Assembly (NCBI GenBank): GCA_964016885.1
Contig: OZ024740.1
Span: 128,030,001 to 128,094,000, forward strand
DNA from: Eledone cirrhosa
Taxonomy: Eukaryota
DNA length: 64,000 bases
Direction of reading: 5' to 3'
Notes under the pieces: model-generated
Database searches by the model: none
What the model was told of the DNA's origin: nothing
What the model saw: the letters and a program-made list of their open reading frames with translations, nothing else
In this document: positions 10,783 through 64,000 of the stretch, one piece after another
How the letters are laid out: each line of letters opens with the position of its first letter
Numbering within the stretch: the stretch's first letter is position 1
Program-made: the position numbers and the translations under genes

Positions 10783-10846
<64 letters not shown>

Positions 10847-10880
10847 TTGTGTGTGTGTGTGTGTGTGTGAGTGTGTGTAA

Positions 10881-10962
<82 letters not shown>

Positions 10963-11106
10963 GTATATATGTATATGTATATATATATATATGTATGTAT
11001 ATATATATATATATATATATGTATATGTATATATATGTATATATATATATACATATATATATATGCATATACATATATATATATATATACATATATATAC
11101 ATATAC

Positions 11107-11143
<37 letters not shown>

Positions 11144-11281
11144 CATTGGAATAAATGCTCTGAAATAGCGATATATATGTGAATATAGACATAGAATATT
11201 CGAAAATATTCTGTATGTTTATAATAAACATTTTGAAGACCTAATCGCTATAGAATAGAATACGTCACGTATTACAATTAG

Positions 11282-11371
11282 ATTCTCGACAAAAGCAAGG
11301 GAAGTAAGTCTACGCGTTTCATTCTTGTTAGAATTCATCAGGACTACATATCCAGTGCTTTTATCGAGAAT
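11282..11371 (-). ncRNA. Minimal type I hammerhead; 7 minus-strand copies every 311 bp, the last at 13148-13237
   Basis: gtagtc-CTGATGA-attct(aaca)agaat-GAA-ACGCGT-A-gacttac, enclosed by a 16-bp stem ATTCTCGATAAAAGCA/TGCTTTTGTCGAGAAT with one U-G wobble. Confidence 0.92.
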
Positions 11372-13458
11372 GACACAGCTAGAGACTTATAGAATACTTA
11401 GCTGTGTACAGGAACTGGTTTGAAAGAGCGGTTGCCGGTCCGGCAGAAATTAGAAATTGGAATAAATGCTCTGAAATAGCGATATATATGTGAATATAGA
11501 CATAGAATATTCGAAAATATTCTGTATGTTTATAATAAACATTTTGAAGACCTAATCGCTATAGAATAGAATACGTCACGTATTACAATTAGATTCTCGA
11601 CAAAAGCAAGGGAAGTAAGTCTACGCGTTTCATTCTTGTTAGAATTCATCAGGACTACATATCCAGTGCTTTTATCGAGAATGACACAGCTAGAGACTTA
11701 TAGAATACTTAGCTGTGTACAGGAACTGGTTTGAAAGAGCGGTTGCCGGTCCGGCAGAAATTAGAAATTGGAATAAATGCTCTGAAATAGCGATATATAT
11801 GTGAATATAGACATAGAATATTCGAAAATATTCTGTATGTTTATAATAAACATTTTGAAGACCTAATCGCTATAGAATAGAATACGTCACGTATTACAAT
11901 TAGATTCTCGACAAAAGCAAGGGAAGTAAGTCTACGCGTTTCATTCTTGTTAGAATTCATCAGGACTACATATCCAGTGCTTTTATCGAGAATGACACAG
12001 CTAGAGACTTATAGAATACTTAGCTGTGTACAGGAACTGGTTTGAAAGAGCGGTTGCCGGTCCGGCAGAAATTAGAAATTGGAATAAATGCTCTGAAATA
12101 GCGATATATATGTGAATATAGACATAGAATATTCGAAAATATTCTGTATGTTTATAATAAACATTTTGAAGACCTAATCGCTATAGAATAGAATACGTCA
12201 CGTATTACAATTAGATTCTCGACAAAAGCAAGGGAAGTAAGTCTACGCGTTTCATTCTTGTTAGAATTCATCAGGACTACATATCCAGTGCTTTTATCGA
12301 GAATGACACAGCTAGAGACTTATAGAATACTTAGCTGTGTACAGGAACTGGTTTGAAAGAGCGGTTGCCGGTCCGGCAGAAATTAGAAATTGGAATAAAT
12401 GCTCTGAAATAGCGATATATATGTGAATATAGACATAGAATATTCGAAAATATTCTGTATGTTTATAATAAACATTTTGAAGACCTAATCGCTATAGAAT
12501 AGAATACGTCACGTATTACAATTAGATTCTCGACAAAAGCAAGGGAAGTAAGTCTACGCGTTTCATTCTTGTTAGAATTCATCAGGACTACATATCCAGT
12601 GCTTTTATCGAGAATGACACAGCTAGAGACTTATAGAATACTTAGCTGTGTACAGGAACTGGTTTGAAAGAGCGGTTGCCGGTCCGGCAGAAATTAGAAA
12701 TTGGAATAAATGCTCTGAAATAGCGATATATATGTGAATATAGACATAGAATATTCGAAAATATTCTGTATGTTTATAATAAACATTTTGAAGACCTAAT
12801 CGCTATAGAATAGAATACGTCACGTATTACAATTAGATTCTCGACAAAAGCAAGGGAAGTAAGTCTACGCGTTTCATTCTTGTTAGAATTCATCAGGACT
12901 ACATATCCAGTGCTTTTATCGAGAATGACACAGCTAGAGACTTATAGAATACTTAGCTGTGTACAGGAACTGGTTTGAAAGAGCGGTTGCCGGTCCGGCA
13001 GAAATTAGAAATTGGAATAAATGCTCTGAAATAGCGATATATATGTGAATATAGACATAGAATATTCGAAAATATTCTGTATGTTTATAATAAACATTTT
13101 GAAGACCTAATCGCTATAGAATAGAATACGTCACGTATTACAATTAGATTCTCGACAAAAGCAAGGGAAGTAAGTCTACGCGTTTCATTCTTGTTAGAAT
13201 TCATCAGGACTACATATCCAGTGCTTTTATCGAGAATCTAATTGTAATACGTGACGTATTCTATTCTATAGCGATTAGGTCTTCAAAATGTTTATTATAA
13301 ACATACAGAATATTTTCGAATATTCTATGTCTATATTCACATATATATCGCTATTTCAGAGCATTTATTCCAATTTCTAATTTCTGCCGGACCGGCAACC
13401 GCTCTTTCAAACCAGTTCCTGTACACAGCTAAGTATTCTATAAGTCTCTAGCTGTGTC

Positions 13459-13548
13459 ATTCTCGATAAAAGCACTGGATATGTAGTCCTGATGAATTCT
13501 AACAAGAATGAAACGCGTAGACTTACTTCCCTTGCTTTTGTCGAGAAT
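13459..13548 (+). ncRNA. Minimal type I hammerhead in the inverted arm (second plus-strand copy 13770-13859)
   Basis: CTGATGA at 13489-13495 and GAAAC at 13510-13514; predicted GUA cleavage after 13519 and after 13830. Confidence 0.92.
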
Positions 13549-14067
13549 CTAATTGTAATACGTGACGTATTCTATTCTATAGCGATTAGGTCTTCAAAAT
13601 GTTTATTATAAACATACAGAATATTTTCGAATATTCTATGTCTATATTCACATATATATCGCTATTTCAGAGCATTTATTCCAATTTCTAATTTCTGCCG
13701 GACCGGCAACCGCTCTTTCAAACCAGTTCCTGTACACAGCTAAGTATTCTATAAGTCTCTAGCTGTGTCATTCTCGATAAAAGCACTGGATATGTAGTCC
13801 TGATGAATTCTAACAAGAATGAAACGCGTAGACTTACTTCCCTTGCTTTTGTCGAGAATCTAATTGTAATACGTGACGTATTCTATTCTATAGCGATTAG
13901 GTCTTCAAAATGTTTATTATAAACATACAGAATATTTTCGAATATTCTATGTCTATATTCATATATATACATATATATACATATATATATATGAATATAT
14001 ATATATATATACATATCATATATTAATTTATACTAATTTGTATATATATATATATATATATACACTT

Positions 14068-14098
<31 letters not shown>

Positions 14099-14150
14099 TA
14101 TATATACATATGCATATATATATACATATGCATATATATATATATATATA

Positions 14151-15136
14151 CAAATTAGTATAAATTAATATATGATAAACACTAATACAATTATATAAGT
14201 GTTTGTATTGCAAATGACCAAGTTAGCTAGATTGAAAAATACTAATTAAATTAATACAGTTTGCCTGTCTCGATTTAAAATAATAAATCAATAAAAACAA
14301 ACCCATATTTACAATAGCCGTGATACCGGGACAAATTTAAATTTCAAAACCCAAACCTGTTCCGCAGACAAATTTAAATTTCAAAACCCAAATTCGTTTC
14401 GCAACGATAAGTGAAAAATGTGAAAAATTCCATTTCTGTGCTCTTCGGCAGGTATCCAGAAAATTGGTATGTTTCACCTCAAAATACTTAGGAGGACTGA
14501 TAAGCAAGTGTTGAACGCACATGGTTTTTCAGCGCCTAGCTAGTCCTATACTCGTGCTGCTAGAAATAACAGCCGTTTTTATGGGACTAAAATGTAGCTC
14601 AACAAAAGGAGCCGTTAATACTATATATAGAGTTATAAACTCAAACAGTCTTTTACAATTAAATAGCTCAAAGAAAGAGGTATTTCTGAGCCGTGAAATA
14701 CAAATTAGTATAAATTAATATATGATAAACACTAATACAATTATATAAGTGTTTGTATTGCAAATGACCAAGTTAGCTAGATTGAAAAATACTAATTAAA
14801 TTAATACAGTTTGCCTGTCTCGATTTAAAATAATAAATCAATAAAAACAAACCCATATTGGCAATAGCCGTGATACCTGGACAAATTTAAATTTCAAAAC
14901 CGTTTAAATTTCAAAATCGTTGCGAAACGAATTTGGGTTTTGAAATTTAAATTTGTCCAGGTATCACGGCTATTGGCAATATGGGTTTGTTTTTATCGAT
15001 TTATTATTTTAAATCGAAACAGGCAAACTGTATTAATTTAATTAGTATTTTTCAATCTAGCTAACTTGGTCATTTGCAATACAAACACTTATATAATTGT
15101 ATTAGTGTTTATCATATATTAATTTATACTAATTTG
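14151..15136 (-). mobile_element. Non-coding ~550-bp tandem unit (1.4 copies plus an inverted segment) carrying a hammerhead
   Basis: caaattagtataaattaat at 14151 and 14701; inverted copy at 14917-15136; HHR at 14322-14456; family fragments at 32186-32260 and 62388-62865. Confidence 0.75.
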
Positions 15137-15250
15137 AGTTCAAATCCCGCCGAGGTTGACTTTGCCTTTCATCCTTACGGGGTCGATAAAATAAAGTACC
15201 AGTAATGCACTGGGTAATTGCTGGCCTTGTGCCTAAAGTAGAAACAATTA
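15135..15250 (+). mobile_element. 5'-truncated tRNA-derived SINE
   Basis: gagttcaaatcccgccgaggttgactttgcc..gcctaaagtagaaac. Confidence 0.85.
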
Positions 15251-15357
15251 ATTTATACTAATTTGTATATATATATATATATGTGTATATGTATATATAT
15301 ATGCATATGTATATATATATATGTATATGTGTGTGTGTGTGTGTAAGTGTATATATG

Positions 15358-15476
<119 letters not shown>

Positions 15477-15488
15477 TAGCTAGAGCTA

Positions 15489-18048
15489 AACTTAGAAATA
15501 TTATAGAACAGTATAGCAAGAAACATAATAGAATGAAGGCCCAGCAACTGGGAGAAAAATCTGCAAATGGCTTGCATAAGCTCATGCAGCGCTCACGTAA
15601 TGGAGAGATAGCATGCTTTCCAACAGCCAAGCCTGGCAGAATGTCGGTTAACAGTCTGCCAAACTACATCCAGGCAATGCAACCCCACATCACTAACACA
15701 CGAGAAGTAACACCACAAGAGCATGAGGATAGAGAAAAAGCCATCAATGCCCATATGATGATGTGGACAAATATAATGCAGCCCAACAAAAGGACGGCCA
15801 ACAACTTCCAGGCCTGGAACAATGACGTGCCAGCGTTGTATGGGCTTCGAAAAGACCATAAAACGAGCAGTGACCCTGTCAAAGGACCATCAACACGGCC
15901 AGTCTGTGGAGCTAATATTGCTAGTAACTACAGACTGTCCTACTTCCTCTCCAGGATCATACGCCCGATCATTGAAATGTCCCCAGATGTATGTGACAGC
16001 ACGTAGGACCTCCTCAGCGAAATCGGCGAGAGTAACCGATCTAGGGACCTAATAAACTGCATAATAGGTAGTATGGATGTTGTGTCGCTGTATCTATCTA
16101 TTGACGTAGATTTTGCTGTGGAGAAATGCGTAGAAATGTTCAGTGAGATCAATGTTGAATTCCGTGGGATTGATACCAGTGAGCTGGGACTCCTACTTAA
16201 ACTTACCTATATTAATAATTATCTAGACACATATGACCTTAGCAACCTGTGCCCTACAAGACCAGCAAGAGGCAGACCACCAACCATTACCTCAATGGCC
16301 AAGAAAACCCACACAGATAGCTGGAACGGGTGGACCAGAGCCATTCGGACCCCCTAAAACTAAAGAAAATTATTGCACATGCGGTGGGGGCCAGAATAAA
16401 ATTAACCCTTAAGGAACATATGTTCAAATTTAATGGAAAAACATATGCCCAAGACGAGGGAGCAGCAATTGGTGTTAGCATTGCAGGCGACATAGCTAAC
16501 CTATTCATGGTATGGTGGGACAGTAGACTTAAACTTAAACTTAAAGAACAATTAGAAGACCCTTTAACCCTGATAATTTACTCCCGCTACGTTGATGATA
16601 TAAATATCGTAGTTAAAACACCCCCACTAGAGAACAGTCAGGAATTAGAGAAAAACACAATGGAAAGCAACCAGAAAATAGCTAACTCCATCCACCACAG
16701 TATTAGAGTTACAATAGACTACCCAAGCAAACACCCCAACCATCGATTACCTGTACTAGACACAGAGCTCTGGTTAGATACCATTAATAACAAAAAATAA
16801 ATCCTCCATTCCCATTATGCCAAACCCATGACTTCCAAATATTTGATCCACCGAAACTCAGCTATTTCGGACTATACCAATATCAACATACTGATTGCGG
16901 ATTTGGTACGGGTGATGAGAAACGTGTCCCGCATGTGCAACCCCGAAGAACTAGAGAGACACATACAACACTTCATCCACCGTATGCAGTTCTCTGGTTA
17001 CAATCAGAGAGTTAAAATCAGAGTGTATAGAGGAGTCAGAACCAAATGGGAAAAAATGGTAAATAATGACACAAATGGGACCTGCCTCTTGTATAGGAGC
17101 AAATTTTGGAATAGAATAGAAAGAACTGGGAATAAGGCTAATAGAATAAACTCATGGTATGATAGCAATAAATACCAGAGTGTAATGTTCATCGATACAC
17201 TCCCTAGAGGTGAATTAGCTTACCAATTTAGAAGGGCTCTAGATAAACATAAACTCAATATTAAGATAGTAGAAAGACCAGGTACCTCCATAAAAACACT
17301 TATTAGGAAGACATACCCTTTTCAAAGACCTCCCTGTACAGATAAGAAATGTATAATCTATAAATTAAGCCCCCATATTAACTGGAAAACTAGAAATGTA
17401 GTATAGAGCATAAGATGTACTGAGGACAATGTAAAGATAAGAATATAGTCTACATAGGTGAGACAGCTCGTAGTATAGGGGAACGGATAAATGAACACTG
17501 GCGAGACCTTCAAGATAGTAAAGAATCATTTGTACTCTACCAACATGCTAAAATAGAACATAAGGGTAAATTAGAGAACATAGAAATAAAAATAGAATAT
17601 ACACACAGAAAAGACGCAATGTTTAGACAAATCATAGAGTCAATAAACATAAATGTATTACAACCAAAATTAAATAGAAAACATGAGTGGAACAGCAACA
17701 TCACAGCTTACAATTAAGGACAAAATGAAAACACACACGCACATAGAACAAACAACCAACCAGTAACATGTAAATAAACAAATAAATAAGCACACTAAGC
17801 ACACAACACACACAAAAATAAGATGGGGTATGACAGAACAAAGGAGTGGCACAAAAAAACAAAGAAAAGAATCCCAGTCACTGAAGAGGTCACAGAATGT
17901 GTGATGAAAGAACTTTGACAATATATAAACAACCATCCGGTTGTGGAACCAACCAACCAACCGGAAATTTATAAATTCCTAAATTAATAAATTTATTGTA
18001 ATAAATTGAAGTGAAAGCTACAATTGCGGCTAAACAAATTCAGAAACG

Positions 18049-20823: not shown

Positions 20824-21333
20824 CCCACCTACCCCCCACTCTCCTGAGCGTGAATTTAATAAACATTTATTGTACTGCCTCTCTGTTCTGTCCCTGTTCA
20901 ATTTTTCATTATATATAACACACGCTCACACGGCTTCCATCCTTGGAACTTAACTTAACAACCGGCTCAACCCCGATCTAATCCGCCGTGACCTTTCTCC
21001 GAACTTTACACACCTTCCCACACTTTGTCTTTCCTTCCACACATTACCTCTGTTTGATTTTGTTACCGTACCCTTTTTTTTCCGTATAAGATTCTTTGCC
21101 TGTGTTCTTACAATTGTATTTCTATGATTTTTTGTTCACGATCGCCTGTGTTATTACCTTTATGATTTTTTGTCTTTAATTTTCCGCTGTATACTCCCCC
21201 CTCCCTACGTTTTTCTGTTTCTTTTTCTCTTACCCGTCACTGCCTATCCTTCGCACTCACCCCTTCGTTCACTCCACCCCGCTTCACACCCCCGCCCTCT
21301 CATCCCTCCCCCTGCTCTCACCCAACGCCCATC

Positions 21334-24140
21334 ATGCCCAACCTGAGATCCTTTCTCCACCAACTCCACAATCGCCTCAAACTTTTCCTCACCCCCCTCC
21401 TTCCACGCTGCTACCCCCCCTCCGCCCTTCAACTCTCCTACTTTCTCTTCGCCAAAACCCGGCACTCCAGCCACATCCATTTCCTCAGCCACTGCCTCCG
21501 CCTCCACCTTATCCCCCTCGGCTTCCGTCTACACTTCCACCCCTCCCCGCTGCTTCCCCCTCCACGCAACATATCCTCACCCGATCCTCACGCCTTCTGA
21601 TGCGCAACTCCATCCGCGCCTCCCGTTCCACCCTCCGCCTAACTTACCACCAACTGACCCCCACCCTCCTCCGCCTTTACTTCACCTGCCACCCCCTCCT
21701 CGCCAAAGCCATCCTCTCCTTCATCCACAACCTCAACCACAACCTCTTCTCGTTCCTCAGCTCCACCAAAGCCCGCAAGCTACACTCACTCCTCTCCCCC
21801 CCCCCCATTCACCACCACCCGCCCATCCCCATACGCCCACCACTCTCCATCTCTCCCCCGACCCACACCCCTACCCAATCTCCACCCTCCACATCACCCC
21901 TCACCACACCCTCCCTTCCCTCCCCAAACACCCAAACCCCACCCCTTGTTGTCACCATACCCCCTGACCTCCCCCTCTCCGCACCTGAGCGCTCACGCCT
22001 TAGTAGAGGCCTTCGCTTCATACCCCACACTCCGCTCAGCGACGGGTTCCGCACCCGAACGGAAGTCGAGCGATTCGTGCGACGCACTAAGCTACAGGCA
22101 CATTTCAGCCGAACGCCACCGGCTCCGGACGCCCCAGACCCGTTTCTCGCCCTGGGCCGACGACCATCTTCTTGGACGCCGGCCCCAGGGCAATTTAGCA
22201 CCCTGGACGCCTTCGTCGATGCCAGCCGTAGCGCAGTAAATCGTTTCGACTTCCGCCACCGTTCCAAACGGCACAACATCTCACGGGGCGAACTCCTCGC
22301 TCTCCGCTCCCTCCGTAGCCGAGATGATATCGTCATCAAACCGGCGGACAAGGGAGGCGCCGTGGTGGTATGGCGCGCGGACCTCTACACGGCCGAAGCC
22401 CTCAGGCAGCTCTGTAACCCCCTCTTTTACCGCCCTCTACACTCCGAAATCACCCTCCTCTAACAACAACAAGTCTCCTCCATCATCAAAGACCTTATCG
22501 CCTCCTCCCTCCTCCCCCCACCGCTTCCCACCTCATCGTCCGCATCCCCCGCACTCCCACCATCTACTTCCTCCCCAAACTCCACAAACCCGACAACCCC
22601 GGCCGCCCCATCGTCTCCGCTTGCAACTGCCCCACCGAACTCATCTCCGCCTTTCTCGACTCCCTCCTCGCCCCCCTTGTCACCACCCTCCCCTCCCACA
22701 TCTCCGACACCAACCACGCCCTGCGCCTTTTCGACTCCTTCACCTACCTACCCGGCCCTCAGCCATTCCTCTTCACCCTAGACATCAAGTCCCTCTATAC
22801 CGTCATCCCCCACGCCGACGGCCTTCGCGCCCTCAAACACTACCTCGACCTTCGCCCCTCCCCCATTCCCTCCACCCCCACCCTCATTCGCCTCGCCGAG
22901 CTGGTCCTCACCCTAAATTGTTTCTCCTTCTCGGGTGAGTTTTACCAACAGGTCACGGGGGTAGCCATGGGTACAAGAATGGGCCCGAACTATGCCAACC
23001 TATTTGTTTGCCATGTTGAGGCCCAAATTTTTGCCCAGTACACCGGCCCCACGCCCGAACTGTACGGTCGTTACATCGACGACTGTATCGGAGCCACGAC
23101 CCTCACCCGAGAACAGCTCGACTCCTTTTTCTCCTTCTTCTGCTCCTTCCACCCCTACCGCCACTTCACCACCTCTATCTCCACCACCCACGTCCACTTC
23201 TTAGACATCTCCGTCGCCTTCGACCCCTCCCACCACTCCCTCGTCACCTCCGCCTTCTTCAAACCCACCGACTCCCACTCTTACCTCGACTTCACCTCTT
23301 CCCACCCCACACACACTAAACACTCTATTCCCTACTCCCAACTCCTCAGGATCCGCCGCCTCTGTAGCCGAGATGCTGACTTCGAGTCCCAGGCCCTTTC
23401 CCAATTCAGCCATTTCATCCGCAGAGCTTACCCCCCTCTCTCGTCCACACCGCTCTCACCCGCGCCCGTGCTGTCCACCGCTCCACCACCCTCACCCCAC
23501 GCCACCGCACACCCACCCACCGTCTCCCCTTCCCCATCACCTACCACCCCTCCACCTTACCCCTCCACCGCACCATCCGCCGCCTCTTCCGACGCCTCCA
23601 GTCCGACCCCTCCACCTCCCACATCTTCCCAACCCCACCACTCCCCTCCGTCAAACGCGCACGCAATCTCCGCACCCTCCTCGTCCACAGCTCCCTACCC
23701 CCCAACCCACGCTCCGGTTCCCCCCCCGGTTCCTTCCCCTGTTCTAGGCCCCAATGCAACACCTGTCCCTACATCACCAACACCACCACCTTCCAGGGTC
23801 CCAACGGCCACTCTTTCTCGGTCCGGCATGCCTTCCGCTGCACCTCCTCCAACCTAGTCTACGGACTTCGTTGCACGGAGTGCAGCGCGACTTATGTCGG
23901 ACAGACGGGACGTCGCCTGGCGGACCGAGTCACGGAGCACCTCCGGGATATTCGTCTCGGGGGCAGTTCCCCCATCGCCCGCCACTTTGGTGGCCCTGGA
24001 CACTCCGCACGTCATCTCACAGTCTGTGGCCTACTCCAGTGCCACGGAACACCCGCCCATCGCCTTACGGTCGAACAACGCAGTATCTTCATCTTACAGA
24101 CCCACACTACCCCGGCCTGAACTCCCCACCCTTATTCCTT
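21334..24140 (+). pseudogene. PLE-B RT/GIY-YIG polyprotein, disrupted by stops and frameshifts
   Basis: ORF-track pieces 21334-21600, 21600-22463 and 22967-23857, plus alternative frames that carry the RT and endonuclease motifs. Confidence 0.88.
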
Positions 24141-44090: not shown

Positions 44091-46406
44091 TTAGGGAGAA
44101 GTGTTTAGATGGGGTCCGTACTTGTTGATGAAGTAAGATTCCTCGCTGATGCGCTGGGTGTGGGTGGCATTATCTTTAAATTTGTAGAGGGGAAAGATTC
44201 TGAAGTTGGGATGATTTTGGGCGGCACAGGTATCAATGTGTTCACTCAGTGGTATTTTCCTGTATTCCCGTATTTTAATTTGGGATCTATGGACAGTCAT
44301 GCGTTGGCGGAGGCTGGTTTTGGTCTGGCCTATGTATTGTTCTCGACAACCTGAGCAAGTTAATACATATATTAGATTTTCCGATGCACATGTGAAATTG
44401 TGTTTTACTATAAAACGTTGTCCTTCTTTGAAATAAAATTCCGAATCCTCTATTAGATAGATGCAAATGCCACAGTTTTGTCTATCGCATTTTTTTACCC
44501 TGGGTTTCGTTGTTGTGGTTGGCAGTACTTTGGCATGTGTTAGGATGTTTTTCATTGACTTGGATTGTCTTTTTCTCTTTATGATATCGTGTGTTCGTAG
44601 GATTTGGTTCATTCTGTGGTCCCTTTTCAACACAGGGATGTTCTGGAGGATGGTGTCAAAGGCCTCATTGTTGAGGGGGTTGTGTGTGGAGATGTATGGA
44701 AGAGCTTTTAGTTTCGGTTGATTTACTTTAGGGTGTCTAAGGTCTTGGGTACTGAGTTTGAGGGCACGTTGGATTCCATTGACAATTAGTGATGCAGGGC
44801 AGTCCCTGCCTATGAGTGTGTCCTTTAGTTCTTGTAGCCGTAAGTAGCAGGTGTTTTTATTGGAGACTATAGTACAGATTCTCTTGGCTAAGTTGTAGGG
44901 AATATTCATTTTAACGTGTCTAGGGTGGCAAGAGTTGAAAGGGAGATATTGCTTGGAGTCTGTGGGCTTGTAGTATATGTCTGCTTCTATTTTTTTGTTA
45001 TGGATCTTAATGAGGATGTCGAGGAAGGGGAGTTGTTGATGGCTGTATTCCATCGTGAAGTTAATATTCGTGTTGAGCCCATTTATATGGGTGTGAAATT
45101 CTTTAAGTTTTTCGATGTTTTCGTGCCAAAGGATGAAGCAGTCATCTAGATATCGCTTCCAGTTCCTTTCAATGTGTAAGTGGAGGGTGTTTCCGAATTT
45201 GTTTAGGACTTTAGTGTAGAGAGTGATTTCCAGGTATCACATGACTAGGTTGGCATAAGTGGGGCTGTTTTCGTTCCCATAGCGGTCCCAGATTTTTGCC
45301 TCTAGGGTTTGTTATTGAAAACGAAGTAATTGTTCTCCAAGATAAATTTGAGTCCCTCTATCACGATTTTTTTTGATGCGTTGTGGGAGTTCATTGTGGA
45401 AATTATCCAGCCAGAATTGGATAGCTTCTATTCCTAGGTTGTGGGGGCTGTTGGAGTATAGGTTGACTACATCGAACGTCACTAGTAGGGTTTGTTCAGA
45501 AAGTGGCATATTAGGGAGGTGATTGAGCATATCTAGGTCGTCCCTTATATAGTTTTTGATGTGTTTGAGAAAGGGTTTGAGAAGGGTATCAATGAAGTTG
45601 CTAAGGAGGTGGGTTTCGCAAGCGGGTCCTGCTATTATAGGTGTTAATTTGAGATCATTGGGTGAGGGGACATTGATGACTATGTCTGTGGCTTCCTTGC
45701 ATGCCTTACTTATTGATTCGCTTTTATGTACTTTAGGGATACCGTAGAAAGGGCTGGATTTACTTGTGAAGTCTGTGATGAAGCTGAATTCCTTGTTAGT
45801 GAGTCCTTCTTTGCATTGGTTGATTAGAGTTTTTAGGTTTCTCATAATTTTCTGTTGATTGTAGTTTTCAGCCTTTTCGTAGTATGTTTCGTTTTCCAAA
45901 GTGGAGAGCGCTAAGTTGATATAGAATTCTGTCTCCATTAGGACTACTGTACTCCCTTTATCAGCCTCTTTAATTGTAATAGTTCTGTCGGTTTTTAATC
46001 TATTTAATTCTTCCCATTCTTTCTTGTTGAGGTTTGGCTTGTGTTTTTCTCTGTGCAAGTGTTGGTAAGGGAAGTTTGTGATGTGTTCACAGAATTCGTC
46101 CAGGATTTTATTTCTACCTTTTGAAGGGGTGTAATTGCTTCTATTTCTGGCTAATGATTCATCCTCACTGTATTGGTCTAATAGTTGTTCACTAAATCGT
46201 AACTTTCTACAGAAGTCTGTGATGTCTTCCTTCATTTCGTAGTAGTTAGGACGTAGTGGGGTCGGTGTGAATTTAAGACCTTTGGAGAGTAAGTTGATAA
46301 GGTTGGGTGTTGGTTCTGCACTAGTAAGATTGATAATTTTTATTACTATCGGTTTCTCCTCCCTGTCTTGTGTTATTTTCTTTGCCTGTATCTGTGTGCT
46401 ATGTCT
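44091..46406 (-). pseudogene. PLE-C ORF2 RT-GIY-YIG (disrupted)
   Basis: ORFs 45312-46235 and 44091-45053; the frame is open upstream to the slippery site at 46406-46412. Confidence 0.9.
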
Positions 46407-47682
46407 AAAAAATGGTTGGGGTAGATGGGTTGTCTGCTGATGTTAAGTGGTCTCCTGTGTTTGTTATATTCCTTGTTGTTGTAAAATGTGTTTCGGGTTG
46501 GTGGTTGTAGATTGAATGGGGTCTTCCTGTACTGCGAGTATGGGTGTGTGTTTCTATGTGCCATGTTGTATTGTGGTGTTATAAGTGGCCTTCGTTGTTG
46601 GTTGTATCGTGTGGTGTGGGTTTGTTGTGTATTGTGGAAGCGAGAGTTGAGAAAATGGTAAATACCTTGCTGTCCCCTTGAAGCGGGGAAGTTGTTACAT
46701 CTATCATGGTGGTGGTGTCTTTTCCCTATGTTTGACGATGAGGCATCTGCGTAGTAGTTGAGTGATTTGGTATGGTGTCTCCTTGAAGGGGGAAAGTTGT
46801 AAATGTCATTCTGGGGGAGATGATTTCTTGGATTTGTGTTCCTTCTTATGGTAGCGAGGTTGGGAAGTTCATCTTCGGTGTGGTGCTTCCTTCTTCGTTT
46901 GTTAGCGGCTTGGGGGTTTGAGAAGTTGTTGTGCGGTTCAGTTATGGGTTTTCCTATTTTTATTAACGGGTTATTGGAGGTGTAATCCGTTTGAAAAGTC
47001 GATTCATAGTGTAGGAACCAAGCGGCACTTTTTTCCCAGCGTTGAAGGGATTTCACTTCTTCTCTGTTGCAGTCCTCTTTCCATAATTTGGAGATCTTCT
47101 CTACTTTGGGGCCTTCAGTTTTGTTGTTGATTTCCAGGAGGATCTCTTCATCGATGGTTTTGATTTTTTCCTCATTTGCCTGGGCCCTCAGTTTAAGAAG
47201 TTCAATTTCTGTCTTCATTTTTTCCTATGCCATTCTTTCCCTAAGGTCTCTTTGAGGTTCGGGTTCATTTGGAATGGGCTTTATTTGTAGTTTACGTGGG
47301 AGAGTTAGAGGGGTTGAGTTAAGCCATTTTTCATATATCTCTGCTTTGTTGTGATTTTGTATCATCTTCCAGAATGAGAACTTTCTGTCTCTGTGGGATT
47401 TGTTCCATTTTGGAATTGTTCGAATTTTCATTTTGTATGAATCAATCTCACATGGTTCTCGTTGGTTTTTCCTGGGTTGGTAGTAGTGAACATAGTTTGG
47501 ATAGTATCGCAAAGGTTTTGGAGTTTGTCGCCGATTTCGGAGGGTTTGTATCCGGTGGCGGTTTCCTTATTTGTGGAGTCAAGTTTGTCGACCAGCAAAG
47601 ATAGGTTGGTGTTGATTTTCTTGAGTTCCTGTAGGATCTCTTCATTTGTGTTGATGAGTGTTGTATCCGTTTTTGTTGGCAT
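46373..47682 (-). pseudogene. PLE-C ORF1 (coiled-coil region plus N/H/R/Q-rich tail)
   Basis: Pieces 47428-47736, 47225-47512 and 46373-47218; the stop at 47225 is read through in copy 2. Confidence 0.7.
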
Positions 47683-48957: not shown

Positions 48958-49039
48958 GAGCTTCTACAGGACTAGAACTGTTTCATTCGTGAGAAATCAT
49001 CACGAATGAAACAGTTCTAGTCCTGTAGAAGCTCTTCTA
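48953..49039. repeat. Perfect 40-bp-arm palindrome built from a hammerhead 3' half
   Basis: Arms 48953-48992 and 49000-49039 with a 7-nt spacer; minus strand reads TGATGA-tttctcacgaat-GAAAC-agttcta-GTC. Confidence 0.85.
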
Positions 49040-49149
49040 CATTAAAACTTTTATACTCTGCTATGTAATGAGTACCTTACTTACTGTGGTTACCTCCGAT
49101 GCATCCCGGAATAACTCATATAATATATATATATATATATATAGATTCG

Positions 49150-51847
49150 AACTTAGAAATATTATAGAACAGTATAGCAAGAAGCATAATAGAATGGAGG
49201 CCCAGCAACTGGGAGAAAAATCTGCAAATGGCTTGCGTAAGCTCATGCAGCGCTCGCGTAATGGAGAGATAGCATGCTTTCCAACAGACAAGTCTGGCAG
49301 AATCTCGGTTGACAGCCTGCCAAACTACATCCATGCAATGCAACCCCACATCACTAACACAAGAGAGGTAACACCACAGGAGCATGAGGATAGAGAAAAA
49401 GCCCTCAATGCCCATATGGTGATGTGGACGAATATAATGCAGCCCAACAAAAGGACTGCCAACAACTTCCAGGCCTGGAACAATGACGTGCCGGCGTTGT
49501 ATGGGCTTCGAAAAGACCATAAAACAGGCAGTGACCCTTCGCGGGACCACCAACACGGCCAGTCTGTGGAGCTAACATTGCTAGTAACTACAGACTGTCC
49601 TACTTCCTCTCCCTGATCATACGCCCCATCATTGAAATATCCTCAGATGTATGTGACAGCACGGAGGACCTCCTCAGCAGAATCGGCGAGAGTAACCGAT
49701 CTAGGGACCTAACAAACTGCATAATAGGTAGTATGGATGTTGTGTCCCTGTATCCATCTATTGACGTGGATTTTGCTGTGAAGAAATGCGTAGAAATGAT
49801 CAGTGAGAGCAATGTTGAGTTCCGTGGGATTGATACCAGTGAGCTGGGACTCCTACTTAAACTTACCTATAGTAATAATTACCTAGACACATATGACCTT
49901 AGCAACCTGTGCCCTACAAGACCAGCAAGAGGCAGACCACCTACCATTACCTCAATGGCCAAGAAAACCCACACAGATAGATGGAACGGGTGGACCAGAG
50001 CCATACGGACACCCTAAAACCACGATGAACTGAAGAAAATGATTGCACATGCGGTAGGGGCAAGCATAAAACTAACCCCTAAGGAACATATGTTCAAATT
50101 TAATGGAAAAACATATGCCCAAAAGGAAAGAGCAGCCATTGGTGTTAGCATTGCAGGCGATATAGCTAACTTATTCATGGTATGGTGGGACAGTAGACTT
50201 AAACTTAAACTTAAAGAACAATTAGAAGACCCCTTAACCCTGATAATGTACTCCCGCTACGTTGATGATATAAACATCGTAGTTAAGACACCCCCACTAG
50301 AGAACAGTCAGGAACTAGAGAAAAACACAATGGAAAGCATCCAGCAAATAGCTAACTCCATCCACCAGAGCATTAGAGTTACTATAGACTACCCAAGTAA
50401 ACACCCCAACCATCGATTACCTGTACTAGACACAGAGCTCTGGTTAGATACCATTAATGACAAAAAACAAATCCTCCATTCCCATTATGCCAAACCCATG
50501 ACTTCCAAACATCTGATCCACCGAAACTCGGCCGTTTCGGACCATAACAAAATCAACATACTGATTGCGGATTTGGTACAGGTGATGAGAAACGTGTCCC
50601 GCATGTGCAACCCCGAAGAACTAGAGAGACACATACAACACTTCATCCACCGTATGCAGTTCTCTGGCTACAATCAGAGAGATACAATCAGAGTGTATAG
50701 AGGAGCCAGAACCAAATGGGAAAAAATGGTAAATAATGACATAAATGGGACCTGCCCCTTGTACAAGAGCAAATTTTGGAATAGAATAGAAAGAACTAGG
50801 AACAAGGCTAATAGAATAAACTCATGGTATGATAGCAATAAATACCAGAGTGTAATGTTCATCGATACAACCCCTAGAGGTGAATTAGCTTACAAATTTA
50901 GAAGGGCCCTAGATAAACATAAACTCAATATTAAGATAGTAGAAAGACCAGGTACCTCCATAAAAACACTTATTAGCAAGACATACCCTTTTCAAAGACA
51001 CTCATGTATAGATAAGAAACGTATAACCTGTTAAATAAGCCCCCATATTAACTGTAAAACTAGAAATGTAGTGTATAGCATAAGATGTACTGAAGGACAA
51101 TGTAGAGACAAAAATATAGTGTACATAGGTGAGACAGCTCGTAGTATAGGGGAACGGATAAATGAACACTGGCGAGACTTTCAAGATAGTAAAGAATCAT
51201 CTGTACTCTACCAACATGCTAAAATAGAACACAAGGGTAAATTAGAGAACATAGAAATAAAAATAGAATCTACACACAGAAAAGACGCAATGTTTAGACA
51301 AATCACAGAGGCAATAATCATAAAAGAATTACAACCAAAATTAAATAGAAAATATGAGTGGAACAGCAACATCACAACTTACAATTAAGGACAAAATGAA
51401 TACACACACACACATAGAACAAACAACCAACCAGTAACATGTAAATAAACAAATAAATAAATGAACATAAACACACACAGACACCCGGATGTGGCGCATG
51501 CACAGACTGAGCATACAACACACACACAGAAACAAAATAGCGTAGGACAGAACAAAGGAGAGGCACAAAAACAAAGAAAGAAATCCCCAGTCACTGAAGA
51601 GGTCACAGAGTGTGTGACGGAAGAACTATGACAATATATAAACAAATTTCTGGTTGTGGAACCAACCAACCAACCAACCATAAATTTATAAATTTATAAA
51701 TTTATTACAAATTTAATATAATAAATTGAAGTGAAAGCACCTGGTGCGTGTGTTTCTTATTGGCAACATGACCCTCCCAAAGTATAACAATATCGGTTTC
51801 AACACACGATTTCAGATAAAGAATCTTGCTAAATAAATTCAGAAACG

Positions 51848-52341: not shown

Positions 52342-55300
52342 TAGACGGAATAGAAATAGCTGACAAATTGTTCATAGTTGAAAAATGGTTTAATTAGGAA
52401 TAAAAGAGTATTAGTGATTGTATGGGTTAGTATTCAGTTGTGGTTTTAAGTTTTTAAGTTTCTACCGGTTGCGCATTTCTAAATGCTTTTCAAAAATAAT
52501 TTTGAGATAGAGTGTCCGTGTTGTTTGCTCTGATCTGATTAGTTTTGGGAATTCTACCGGTTTTTATGTTAAAAAAGTGGCTCCAGCGTTACTTTGGTGT
52601 TGCAAAAATTATTGTGGTCAAAACAATTTTGATTGGTCGGTAGAGGTCATGTGAATGTAAACAATTGATTTTGCGCCAAGACTGTTTTTATGTTAAAAAA
52701 GTGGCTCCAGCGCTATTTGGTGTTTGCAAACTTTCAGAGACAGAACGTTCTCATTCTGAAAGATGATACAAAATCACAACAAAGCAGAGATATATGAAAA
52801 ATGGCTTCACTCAACCCCTCTAACTCTCCCCCGTAAACTACAAATAAAGTCCATTCCAAATGAACCCGAACCTCAAAGACACATTAGGGAAAGAATGGCA
52901 TTGGAAAAAATGAAGACAGAAATTGAACTTCTTAAACTGAGGGCCCAGACAAATGAGGAAAAAATCAAAACCATCGATGAAGAGATCCTCCTGGAAATCA
53001 ACAACAAAACTGAAGGCCCCAAGGTAGAGAAGATCTCCAAATTATGGAAAGAGGACTTCAACAGAGAAGAAGTGAAATCCCTTCAACGCTGGGAAAAAAG
53101 TGCCGCTTGGTTCCTACACTATGAATCGACTTTTCAAACGGATTACACCTCCAATAACCCGTTAATAAAAATAGGAAAACCCATAACTGAACCGCACAAC
53201 AACTTCTCAAACCCCCAAGCCTCTAACAAACGAAGAAGGAAGCACCACACCGAAGATGAACTTCCCAACCTCGCTACCATAAGAAGGAACACAAACCCAA
53301 GAAATCATCTCCCCCAGAATGACATTTACAACTTTCCCCCTTCAAGGAGACACCATACCAAATCACTCAACTACTACGCGGATGCCTCATCGTCAAACAT
53401 AGGGAAATGATACCACTGCCATGATAGATGTAACAACTTCCCCGCTTCAAGGGGACAGCAAGGTAATTACCATTTTCTCAACTCTCGCTTCCACAATACA
53501 CAACAAACCCACACCACAGGATACAACCAACAACGTAGGCCACTTATAACACCACAATACAACATGGCACATAGAAACACACACCCATACTCGCAGTACA
53601 GGAACACCCCATCCAATCCACAACCACCAACACGAACCACATTTTACAACAACAAGGAATATAACAAACACAGGAGACCACTTAACATCAGCAGACAACC
53701 CCTCTACCCCAACCATTTTTTAGACACAGCACACAGATACAGGCAAACAAAATAACACAAGATAGGGAGGAGAAACCGATAGTAATAAACATTATCAATC
53801 TTACTAGTGCAGAACCAACACCCAACCTTATCAACTTACTCTCCAAACGTCTTAATTTCACACCGACCCCACTACGTCCTAACTACTACGAAATGAAGGA
53901 AGACATCACAGACTTCTGTAGAAAGTTACGACCAGTACAATGAGGATGAATCATTAGCCAGAAATAGAAGCAATTACACCCCTTCAAAAGGTAGAAATAA
54001 AATCCTGGACGAATTCTGTGAACACATCACAAACTTCCCTTACCAACACTTGCACAGAGAAAAACACAAGCCAAACCTCAACAAGAAAGAATGGGAAGAA
54101 TTAAATAGATTAAAAACCGACAGAACCATTACAATTAAAGAGGCTGATAAAGGGAGTACAGTAGTCCTAATGGAGACAGAATTCTATATCAACTTAGCGC
54201 TCTCCACTTTGGAAAACGAAACATACTACGAAAAGGCTGAACACTACAATCAACAGAAAATTATGAGAAACCTAAAAACTCTAATCAACCAATACAAAGA
54301 AGGACTCACTAACAAGGAATTCAGCTTCATCACAGACTTCACAAGTAAATCCAGCCTCTTCTACGGTATCCCTAAAGTACATAAAAGCGAATCAATAAGT
54401 AAGGCATGCAAGGAAGCCACAGACATACTCATCAATGTCCCCTCACCCAATGATCTCAAATTAAGACCTATAATAGCAGGGCCCGCTTGCGAAACGCACC
54501 GTCTTAGCAACTTCATTGATACCCTTCTCAAACCCTTCCTCAAACACATCAAAAGCTATATAAGGGACGACCTAGATATGCTCAATCACCTCCCTAATAT
54601 GCCACTTTCTGAACAAACCATACTAGTGACGTTCGATGTAGTCAACCTATACTCCAACATCCCCCACAACCTAGGAATAGAAGCTATCCAATTCTGGCTG
54701 GATAATTTCCACAATGAACTCCCACAACGCATCAAAAAAGAATTCGTGATAGAGCGACTGAAATTTATCTTGGAGAACAATTACTTCGTTTTCAATAACA
54801 AACCCTACAGGCAGAAATCTGGGACCGCTATGGGAACGAAAACAGCCCCCACTTATGCCAACCTAGTCATGGGATACCTGGAAATCACCCTCTACACTAA
54901 AGTCCTAAACAAATTTGGAAACACCCTCCACTTACACATTGAAAGGAACTGGAAGCGATATCTAGATGACTGCTTCATCCTTTGGCACGAAAACATCGAA
55001 AAACCTAAAGAATTTCACACCCTTATAAATGGGCTCAACACGAATATTAACTTCACGATGGAATACAGCCATCAACAACTCCCCTTCCTCGACATCCTCA
55101 TTAAGATCCATAACAAAAAAATAGAAACAGACATATACTACAAGCCCACAGACTCCAAGCAATATCTTCCCTTCAACTCTTGCCACCCTAGACGCGTTAA
55201 AATTAATATTCCTCACAACTTAGCCAAGAGAATCTGTACTATAGTCTCCAATAAAAACATCTGCTACTTACGGCTACAAGAACTAAAGGACACACTCATA

Positions 55301-56164
55301 GGCAGGGACTACCCTGCATCACTAATTGACAATGGAATCCAACGTGCCCTAAAACTCAGTACACAGGACCTTAGACACCCTAAAGTAAATCAACCGAAAC
55401 TAAAAGCTCTTCCATAAATCTCCACACACAACCCTCTCAACAATGAGGCATTTGACACCATCCTCCAGAACATCCCTGTGTTGAAAAAAGACCATAGAAT
55501 GAACCAAATCCTACGAACACACGATATCATAAAGAGAAAAAGACAATCCAAGTCAATGAAAAACATCCTAACACATGCCAAAGTACTGCCAACCACAACA
55601 ACGAAACCCAGGGTAAAAGAATGCGATAGACCCAACTGTGGCATTTGCATCAACCTAATAGAGGGTTCGGAATTCTATTTCAAAGATGGACAACGTTTTA
55701 TAGTAAAACACAATTTCACATGTGCATCGGAAAATCTAATATATGTATTAACTGGCTCAGGTTGTCGGGAACAATACATAGGCCAGACCAAAACCAGCCT
55801 CCGCCAACGCATGACTGTCCATAGATCCCAAATTAAAATACGGGAATACAGGAAAATACCACTGAGTGAACACATTGATACCCGTGGCGCCCAAAATCAT
55901 CCCAACTTCAGAATCTTTCCCCTCTACAAATTTAAAGATAATGCCACCCACACACAGCGCATCAGCAAGGAATCTTACTTCATTAACAAATACGGACCCC
56001 GTCTAAACACTTCTCCCTAAGATGAACCCACAACATACACACGTTGACATACATACCTACATCAGCACACATCTCCACCCACATATAAACACAATGACAT
56101 ACGTAAACACACATGCTCTATGGTGCAACACAGAAAAATATATGTGTATATATATGTATATATA

Positions 56165-59387: not shown

Positions 59388-60120
59388 TGTACACACATTC
59401 ATACATACATATAAGGATATATACAAAGGATATATAAAAAGAATAATAGTAATAAAATGCATATATACTCCATATATAATCATCCGTACAGATTCCTGTG
59501 AGATGCACATAGACACATACATGTATGCACAAATACACATACACACATATAGAGGCCCACATATGCATATACCCGCACCCACACATATGTATAAATATAT
59601 ACATATATATATACACACACCTACTCATACGTAGCTATACGTACATACGCACACATATATACATATACATACATATATATATATTTATATATACACACAT
59701 ATATACATACATGCACATGTCTGCACATACACGCGCTCATAAGCTCATGCATACACGTACACATGCCCATATACACACCCCCATACACACCCACGTATAT
59801 ATATATATATATCTACATACACACACACATACATATACCTACTCACATGTCCTCACATAAAAACACGCGAATATAAACACAACAGGATAATAAAATAAAA
59901 TAAAATAAATAAATAAATTTACAATATTTTAGGATACATTAAAATCTGTATGTAACTTCATATATAGGTACAAGAAAAAAGGGGTAAAATAAAAAACGGG
60001 GGAGGGGGTACAGGAGAAGGTGCGTGTAACCATGTGATATACTACACACAGGTAGTATGAGATGCAGACTTGTGTCCGTATACAGAACAGGTAACAGTAA
60101 CAGAACAATAATAGAACAAT

Positions 60121-60507
60121 AATTGTTTCTACATTAGGCACAAGGCCAGCAATTACCCAGTGCATTACTGGTACTTTATTTTATCGACCCCGTAAGGATG
60201 AAAGGCAAAGTCAACCTCGGCGGGATTTGAACTCAGATCGTAAAGGGACGTAACTATGCTAGAAAGCATGGCGTCCGACCCTCTACCGATACTGCCAATC
60301 CACCGCCCTTAATAATAGAACAATAATTGTTTCTACTTTAGGCACAAGGCCAGCAATTACCCAGTGCATTACTGGTACTTTATTTTATCGACCCCGTAAG
60401 GATGAAAGGCAAAGTCAACCTCGGCGGGATTTGAACTCAGATCGTAAAGGAACGTAACTATGCTGGAAAGCATGGCGTCCGACCTTCTACCGATACTGCC
60501 AATCCAC
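60121..60507 (-). mobile_element. Two adjacent tRNA-derived SINEs (60121-60310 and 60325-60507)
   Basis: Both have A and B boxes; aataatagaacaat is duplicated at 60107-60120 and 60311-60324 (TSD-like). Confidence 0.9.

Positions 60508-62238: not shown

Positions 62239-64000
<1,762 letters not shown>

What the first reader, a model, noticed from the sequence alone, without database searches (positions are those of the whole stretch)
12424..13961. Array flips polarity inside the ribozyme's own stem, making a ~740-bp hairpin whose loop is the antisense catalytic core
Seen: the forward series ends at TGCTTTTATCGAGAAT (13222-13237) and continues as the reverse complement from the partner arm of the same 16-bp stem. 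Position 13230 pairs with 13155, and 13961 pairs with 12424. The 58-nt loop (13164-13221) is the HHR core in antisense. Inference: nascent cDNA folded back or switched template through the extended helix I, so the ribozyme structure itself set the inversion breakpoint. Transcription from either side would give HHR-bearing RNA and long dsRNA, a possible self-silencing small-RNA source or ADAR substrate.
Basis: partly seen in the sequence, partly recalled or inferred. Interest (0 to 1): 0.75.

Follow-up and report, generated by a model that had tools for sequence, protein, structure and literature searches.

The report
Two-armed retrozyme joined at ribozyme stem
This is one of roughly 1,500 back-to-back arrays of a 311-base repeat carrying a hammerhead-ribozyme motif, and here the two halves meet in the motif's 16-base stem, likely because two DNA copies made from both sides of a cut annealed through that matching sequence, not because the ribozyme directs the flip.

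Summary
It is part of a larger element (11145-13961): 6.7 + 2.4 identical 311-nt units in (TA)n, a non-LTR retrozyme by sequence.

Inversion is the family rule: 93 of 100 consecutive loci. The two outer ends sit at two fixed unit positions about 26 nt apart, the Penelope 'tail' footprint. Inner junctions are scattered and microhomology-rich; 1 of 132 sampled lies in helix I.

Genome-wide the helix-I junction recurs 19 times (16 clean, independent loci), about 30-fold over chance but about 1% of junctions. A 9-bp stem outside the ribozyme is enriched 19-26-fold, so microhomology length suffices. The proposed fold-back across the ribozyme loop is geometrically impossible at 9 of the 16 loci.

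Best reading: both nicked target strands prime reverse transcription on one RNA, and the two cDNAs join by microhomology. dsRNA, small RNA and editing are untested. The scan already reported this family and its two-ended layout on other DNA of this genome; new here is the hotspot test with controls.

The parts
11145..13237 (-). Left arm: 6.7 identical 311-nt units, ribozyme-sense on the - strand. Outer end at unit position 1 (start site 1).
   Evidence: 0 mismatches to a perfect repeat
13222..13961 (+). Right arm: 2.4 units, ribozyme-sense on the + strand. Outer end at unit position 27-36 (start site 2, ATATATAT tract merging into TA flank).
13222..13237 (.). Junction: 16-bp overlap shared by both arms (outer helix I). 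The exact crossover lies in the 8 bp 13230-13237.
   Evidence: right arm extends exactly back to 13230, A at 13229 comes from the left arm
13148..13163 (.). Partner arm of outer helix I in the last left-arm unit (C at 13156 opposite A 13229)
13164..13221 (-). 58-nt spacer of the big inverted repeat: hammerhead core, inner helix I, helix II, minimal helix III (antisense on +). Predicted cleavage between 13177 and 13176 on -.
   Evidence: cleavage site inferred from the hammerhead consensus (recalled)
13459..13548 (+). Complete type I hammerhead motif, sense copy: CUGAUGA at 13489, GAAA, predicted GUA cleavage after 13519. Second copy 311 nt further on.
11145..11170 (-). About 26-nt 'tail': unit sequence present at the left outer end and absent from the right outer end
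   Evidence: same asymmetry across the family
10803..11144 (.). Left (TA)n target tract
13962..14010 (.). Right (TA)n target tract

Best explanation
This is a young insertion of a 311-nt hammerhead repeat (a non-LTR retrozyme by sequence and layout) whose two back-to-back arms were likely written by a Penelope-type enzyme from both strands of a cut in (TA)n and then likely joined by microhomology, here the ribozyme's outer stem. Shown: the head-to-head layout; two fixed outer ends about 26 nt apart; scattered inner junctions rich in microhomology; the same haplotype in both arms; and a junction hotspot at each longer inverted repeat tested. Inferred: (1) a GIY-YIG endonuclease nicks both strands. 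(2) One 3' end starts reverse transcription near unit position 1 with little homology; the other pairs with the RNA's (AU)4 tract at 27-34. (3) Both enzymes copy the same RNA, a circle or a multimer, for a variable number of units. (4) The two same-sense cDNA ends anneal where they are complementary and fill in. Because helix I offers 16 complementary bases, it captures about 1% of joins. Catalysis plays no evident part in choosing the breakpoint.
For: 93 of 100 consecutive site-1 loci on C1 have an adjacent inverted arm; the second arm ends at position 27-28 in 89 of 91 complete cases. 27 of 40 further site-27 loci are inverted, all 27 with the other end at 305-6. Genome counts: 1142 site-1 and 1426 site-27 TA junctions. 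The second arm is longer than the first in 41 of 91 loci. In 21 of 129 loci neither arm can be a fold-back copy of the other. Microhomology of 2 or more bases in 41 of 68 clean joins (12.3 expected), 4 or more in 13 (1.6 expected). Hotspots: 16-bp stem 16-18 (30-34x), 9-bp non-ribozyme stem 6-8 (19-26x), 8-bp repeat 3 (11x). Arms share a haplotype in 101 of 106 loci against 0.087 by chance; 35 haplotypes. The two loci with an imperfect stem resolve in opposite ways: the window keeps A, L210 keeps G. L210 has an 11-15-bp target duplication at a non-TA site. A Penelope-like RT nicks and extends both strands from two adjacent internal RNA sites in vitro (PMC11167929).
Against: No autonomous partner sharing sequence was found: 0 of 30 GIY-YIG loci and none of the window's PLE copies carry the unit as a pLTR; one locus held a separate sister array. 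No RNA data. The window alone fits simple fold-back (cDNA hairpin -14.7 kcal/mol). L212 has both ends at position 1, and L214 and L217 have short second arms ending off TA, so these may be true fold-backs. Site-27 arms ended at 143-150, inside helix I, in 11 of 93 loci (scan p = 0.006), which hints at a structural pause, but only 2 of 39 did so in the replication set (1.0 expected). RNA stems and cDNA microhomology are the same sequences, so the controls do not fully separate pausing from annealing. Up to 13 of 40 site-27 loci are single-armed. Mosaic loci (L088, L097, L115, L154, L184) do not fit a single monomer circle. The denominator of about 1,500 is an estimate.
Confidence: 0.7

Rival explanations
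1. Fold-back or template switch: one cDNA folds on the antisense helix I, copies itself back and ends where an ATATATAT tract anneals to the target. The ribozyme stem sets the breakpoint.
For: In the window the right arm (740 nt) is shorter than the left (2093 nt), and the junction keeps the template-derived A. The cDNA end folds into the hairpin. The hotspot is real. The site-27 end has 8-10 nt of homology to TA. L212 looks like a full hairpin copy. PMC3846280 (passages) explains PLE inverted junctions by self-priming.
Against: Short-loop fold-back is impossible at 9 of 16 stem loci, and any fold-back at 3 of 16. The site-27 arm cannot be a copy of the site-1 arm in 60 of 129 loci. L210 keeps G rather than A. 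131 of 132 sampled junctions lie elsewhere.
Confidence: 0.12
2. Twin priming as in the best explanation, but RT pausing inside helix I of the RNA adds to the hotspot, so RNA structure contributes beyond microhomology.
For: 11 of 93 site-27 arms end at 143-150 (p = 0.006); 12 end in the 3' arm of the stem against 4.8 expected. In the window the crossover lies in the 8 bp that end at position 145.
Against: Not replicated: 2 of 39. No excess in site-1 arms. The per-join rate does not differ from the 9-bp control. No excess of ends at the cleavage site (6 of 264 ends, 5.9 expected).
Confidence: 0.12
3. Post-insertion DNA rearrangement (replication slippage, inverted-repeat-mediated inversion) or a long-read fold-back artefact in the assembly.
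For: The exact junction was not bridged in short-read contigs. Tandem plus inverted repeats are hard to assemble (PMC8557442, passage).
Against: The orientation is head-to-head in every inverted locus examined, with two different fixed ends and different flanks on each side. Chimeric reads would mirror the flank. Contigs of two runs of one public sample show other inversion joins of the family at depth 4-35. Arms differ in length and share locus-private variants.
Confidence: 0.05

Closest known systems
Metazoan non-LTR retrozymes (PMC7229834, passages; bioRxiv 10.64898/2026.07.22.740005, first fifth plus passages)
   Same: Non-coding tandem unit of 150-450 bp, low GC, one type I hammerhead per unit, dimers to multimers, proposed PLE origin.
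   Different: Those passages describe tandem arrays only. In the preprint 'tail' and 'orientation' occur 0 times and 'inverted' once, in a reference title; the search term 'inverted' occurs 0 times in PMC7229834. Here most loci are two-armed with two fixed ends. Expression and cleavage were not tested here.
Penelope-like elements with endonuclease (PMC8557442 and PMC3846280, passages; PMC11167929, parts 1-2 of 4)
   Same: Inverted 5'-truncated copy head-to-head, a tail at one end only, bias for (TA)n or AT-rich targets, two adjacent internal RT start sites downstream of the hammerhead.
   Different: No ORF. The tail is about 26 nt rather than 30-40. Each arm is many identical units. The published account of the inverted junction is self-priming on an antisense template, which the arm-length test here disfavours.
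L1 twin priming (PMC2837659, search listing only; mechanism recalled)
   Same: Two target-primed cDNAs joined by microhomology give an inverted insertion.
   Different: In L1 it is a minority outcome with a variable second priming site (recalled). Here it is the rule and the second site is fixed.

Membership tests
Non-LTR retrozyme | Tandem units of 150-450 bp, GC under 45-50%, no ORF | tested here: met
   311-nt unit, region GC 0.31-0.34; no ORF of 120 aa or more lies within the array
Non-LTR retrozyme | Type I hammerhead motif in each unit (CUGANGA, helix II, GAAA, helix III, NUH, long helix I) | tested here: met
   Motif and helices I and II present, z = -5.3. Helix III is minimal. Rfam gave 0 hits at gathering score.
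Non-LTR retrozyme | Self-cleavage and expression as linear and circular RNA | not testable with these tools
   No RNA holder listed
Non-LTR retrozyme | Dispersed multi-locus family | tested here: met
   1142 and 1426 end junctions genome-wide
PLE-mobilised insertion | Inverted 5'-truncated copy, head-to-head | tested here: met
   93 of 100 loci
PLE-mobilised insertion | Tail extension at one end only (two start sites) | tested here: met
   Ends at about 1 and about 27; about 26 nt, shorter than the published 30-40
PLE-mobilised insertion | Target-site duplication | tested here: inconclusive
   Hidden in (TA)n at most of 146 loci; clear at L210
PLE-mobilised insertion | Sequence shared with the pLTR of an autonomous PLE | tested here: inconclusive
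   None in the window's PLE copies or in 30 of 150 listed GIY-YIG loci (10,597 candidates)
Autonomous Penelope-like element | RT plus GIY-YIG ORF | tested here: not met
   No ORF in the element
   1 of 132 sampled; per-join rate like the 9-bp non-ribozyme stem

The most novel reading that the evidence does not exclude
Penelope-type retrotransposition is obligate twin priming. An RT dimer extends both nicked strands from two fixed sites of one RNA, even within the same 311-nt unit (three loci show the same variant in the same ordinal copy of both arms), runs round a ribozyme-made circle or along a multimer, and the two cDNAs are end-joined by microhomology. This would explain the tail and the head-to-head inverted copy of PLEs without an antisense template. 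About 1,500 near-identical junctions would give a natural dose curve of microhomology length (2-16 bp) against joining frequency.
Probability: 0.5. Interest if true: 0.75.

Novelty: new variant of a known kind. Interest (0 to 1): 0.5.

Why it matters
How Penelope-like elements make their head-to-head inverted copies and one-sided tail is an open question (PMC3846280, PMC8557442, PMC11167929). How animal retrozymes enter genomes has been proposed but, in the texts read, not shown. This family gives over a thousand very young junctions that tie retrozymes to the PLE footprint and disfavour self-priming. It also supplies a 311-nt substrate with two predicted start sites for an in vitro test.

Tried and rejected
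Rfam scan of the window: 0 hits at gathering score.

A-versus-G bias at the stem junction (18 against 1): first read as a sign of fold-back, then dropped because most copies have a perfect stem. Only the window and L210 are informative, and they disagree.

RT pause at 143-150: seen, not replicated. Stops at the cleavage site: no excess.

One progenitor junction copied many times: rejected; 16 loci on 10 haplotypes, with either arm carrying the stem end.

Short-read confirmation of this junction: contigs are about 60 nt and none bridges it, and the raw-read run laid 0 reads, so no test. No RNA holder listed.

Hits in 17 other organism labels: the two laid gave one 340-nt contig each at depth 26-34, against about 100,000 in the main sample. 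Contamination is not excluded, so they are not used as evidence.

Search for the autonomous partner: negative in 30 loci; a wider search for it was not completed.

Rows left out of counts: 7 of 100 loci (1 N gap, 1 arm longer than the fetch, 1 first arm too short to align, 4 single-armed); 3 of 19 stem matches (1 tandem duplicate, complex L207, fragment L209); 3-4 unpaired site-27 loci not fetched; positions 27-38, 113-115 and 162-165 masked in haplotype calls. bioRxiv supplements were closed and could bear on whether inverted retrozyme arrays were noted.

Full report
Observation. The coordinates are right. The + series is a perfect 311-nt repeat from 11145 to 13237, and the inverted series runs to 13961. 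The arms 12424-13163 and 13222-13961 pair with one A.C mismatch. The 58-nt spacer is the antisense hammerhead core. The sense motif (13459-13548) has CUGAUGA, a 5-bp helix II, GAAA, a minimal helix III, a GUA triplet and a long helix I with a 16-bp outer stem; folding z = -5.3. Rfam does not call it at gathering score. The whole element is 6.7 + 2.4 units, head-to-head in ribozyme sense, between two (TA)n tracts. Unit positions below count from 11145.

The family. The genome (3.0 Gb) holds 1142 junctions of TA with unit position 1 and 1426 with position 27-36. I fetched the first 100 listed site-1 loci on C1: 93 have an adjacent inverted arm. Of 91 with a complete second arm, 88 end at 27, one at 28, one at 39, and one is complex. 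Of 40 site-27 loci left unpaired by the exact patterns, 27 are inverted, all with the other end at 305-6; up to 13 are single-armed. Of 16 loci from the first search, 12 are inverted. From these rates I estimate about 1,500 inverted elements. The inversion is therefore the rule, and the fixed parts are the outer ends, about 26 nt apart.

Do junctions cluster in helix I? In 132 sampled junctions, 1 does; the rest scatter over the unit. Genome-wide the stem junction string occurs 19 times. Removing one tandem duplicate, one complex locus and one fragment leaves 16 loci on 10 haplotypes with different flanks, so these are independent events. Chance predicts 0.53, giving 30-34-fold enrichment, about 1% of junctions. 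As controls, a 9-bp inverted repeat outside the ribozyme gives 8 matches (6 with a normal second arm), 19-26-fold; an 8-bp one gives 3, 11-fold. The rate per chance join does not differ between the 16-bp and 9-bp stems (p = 0.39-0.55). Ordinary junctions show the same trend: microhomology of 2 or more in 41 of 68 clean joins (12.3 expected) and 4 or more in 13 (1.6 expected); 25 of 93 carry inserted bases. The hotspot thus lies on a general microhomology trend. A possible extra pause inside helix I (11 of 93 site-27 arms, p = 0.006) did not replicate (2 of 39).

Fold-back test. A cDNA that folds back can only copy what it has already made. Across the ribozyme loop this is impossible at 9 of the 16 stem loci, and by any loop at 3. 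Across 129 loci, the site-27 arm cannot be a copy of the site-1 arm in 60, the reverse fails in 90, and both fail in 21. Fold-back also gives no reason for the copied arm to stop at the other fixed site. The two loci with an imperfect stem resolve in opposite halves of it (window A, L210 G). Against this, the window itself is compatible with fold-back, and L212, L214 and L217 may be real fold-backs.

Template. Both arms carry the same majority haplotype in 101 of 106 loci, against 0.087 by chance, with 35 haplotypes in all. Singleton changes run at 4.1e-4 per base. Some locus-private variants are fixed in 20 or more copies (L121, L127). This fits one RNA molecule per insertion and a monomer bottleneck such as a circle. 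Mosaic loci qualify it. In L097, L115 and L184 a variant sits in the same ordinal copy of both arms, and in L088 one arm changes haplotype midway. These point to multimeric templates or template exchange in some events, so circle against multimer stays open.

Mechanism. Most likely a Penelope-type enzyme nicks both strands of (TA)n, and each 3' end primes reverse transcription: one near position 1 with little homology, one by pairing with the (AU)4 tract. The two same-sense cDNAs then join by microhomology, which helix I supplies best. The layout, ends, junction statistics and haplotypes are shown; the enzyme and the steps are inferred. An 11-15-bp target duplication at L210 fits a staggered cut. 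RT and GIY-YIG coding copies are abundant in the window and genome, but no partner sharing the unit's sequence was found.

Known systems. The unit matches metazoan non-LTR retrozymes (PMC7229834, passages), proposed as non-autonomous PLE derivatives (10.64898/2026.07.22.740005, first fifth and passages). An inverted 5'-truncated copy and a one-sided 30-40-bp tail are PLE hallmarks (PMC8557442 and PMC3846280, passages). A purified PLE protein cuts and extends both strands from two adjacent internal sites, and hammerhead cleavage was not needed in vitro (PMC11167929, parts 1-2 of 4). Four paper searches listed no report of two-armed retrozyme arrays; the library lacks most subscription papers. 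Eight earlier notes of this scan describe the same two-ended layout elsewhere in this genome, seen after I had reached that reading. A word search found none on the stem hotspot.

Function claims. A read-through transcript from either side could form long dsRNA and would carry sense hammerheads past the junction. This holds for every inverted locus, and nothing here tests it.

Verdict. Real feature, exact description, mechanism mostly reassigned. Interest 0.5: the stem junction is a modest hotspot, while the family's footprint makes the PLE inversion question testable but has been reported by this scan before.

Noticed in passing
L210:8130-9000, L197 (about 1.4 kb repeat), L123, L225:2430-2900: Sister repeats about 75% like the unit over positions 240-110, with the same TA-joined starts, inverted arms and a shared GCTCTGAAATA motif between the two start sites (candidate enzyme-binding element). 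Their outer helix I has unrelated sequence but is again about 14-16 bp. The L210 copy has a UUGAUAA core, a U3-A8 swap of the usual C3-G8 pair; L225 has the usual core.
   Followed up: partly
window 44091-47224 (-) and 52760-56020 (+): Head-to-head pair of broken PLE-type RT plus GIY-YIG copies with matching 3' ends, with another RT-coding copy (49029-51034) between them.
   Followed up: partly
window 21180-24120 and 15347-17700: Further broken PLE-like RT copies; the first is very C-rich on +.
   Followed up: no
window 14007-15260: Another TA-inserted repeat with nested inverted arms (14151-14384 and 14701-14901 against 14903-15136), related to 62614-62865; no canonical hammerhead core found.
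   Followed up: partly
L088, L097, L115, L154, L184: Mosaic arrays. In L115 both arms begin with two copies of one haplotype and then switch to another.
   Followed up: partly
window 13960-13953 and many site-27 ends: The outermost copy often reads A instead of G at unit position 35, as expected if a 10-nt TA primer paired with the RNA with one mismatch.
   Followed up: partly
runs X4-X20: Near-identical unit words under 17 other organism labels; the two laid are single low-depth contigs. Contamination or real sharing not resolved.
   Followed up: partly
window 60107-60507: 204-bp tandem duplicate of a dispersed short repeat also present at 15132-15250 and several other places.
   Followed up: no
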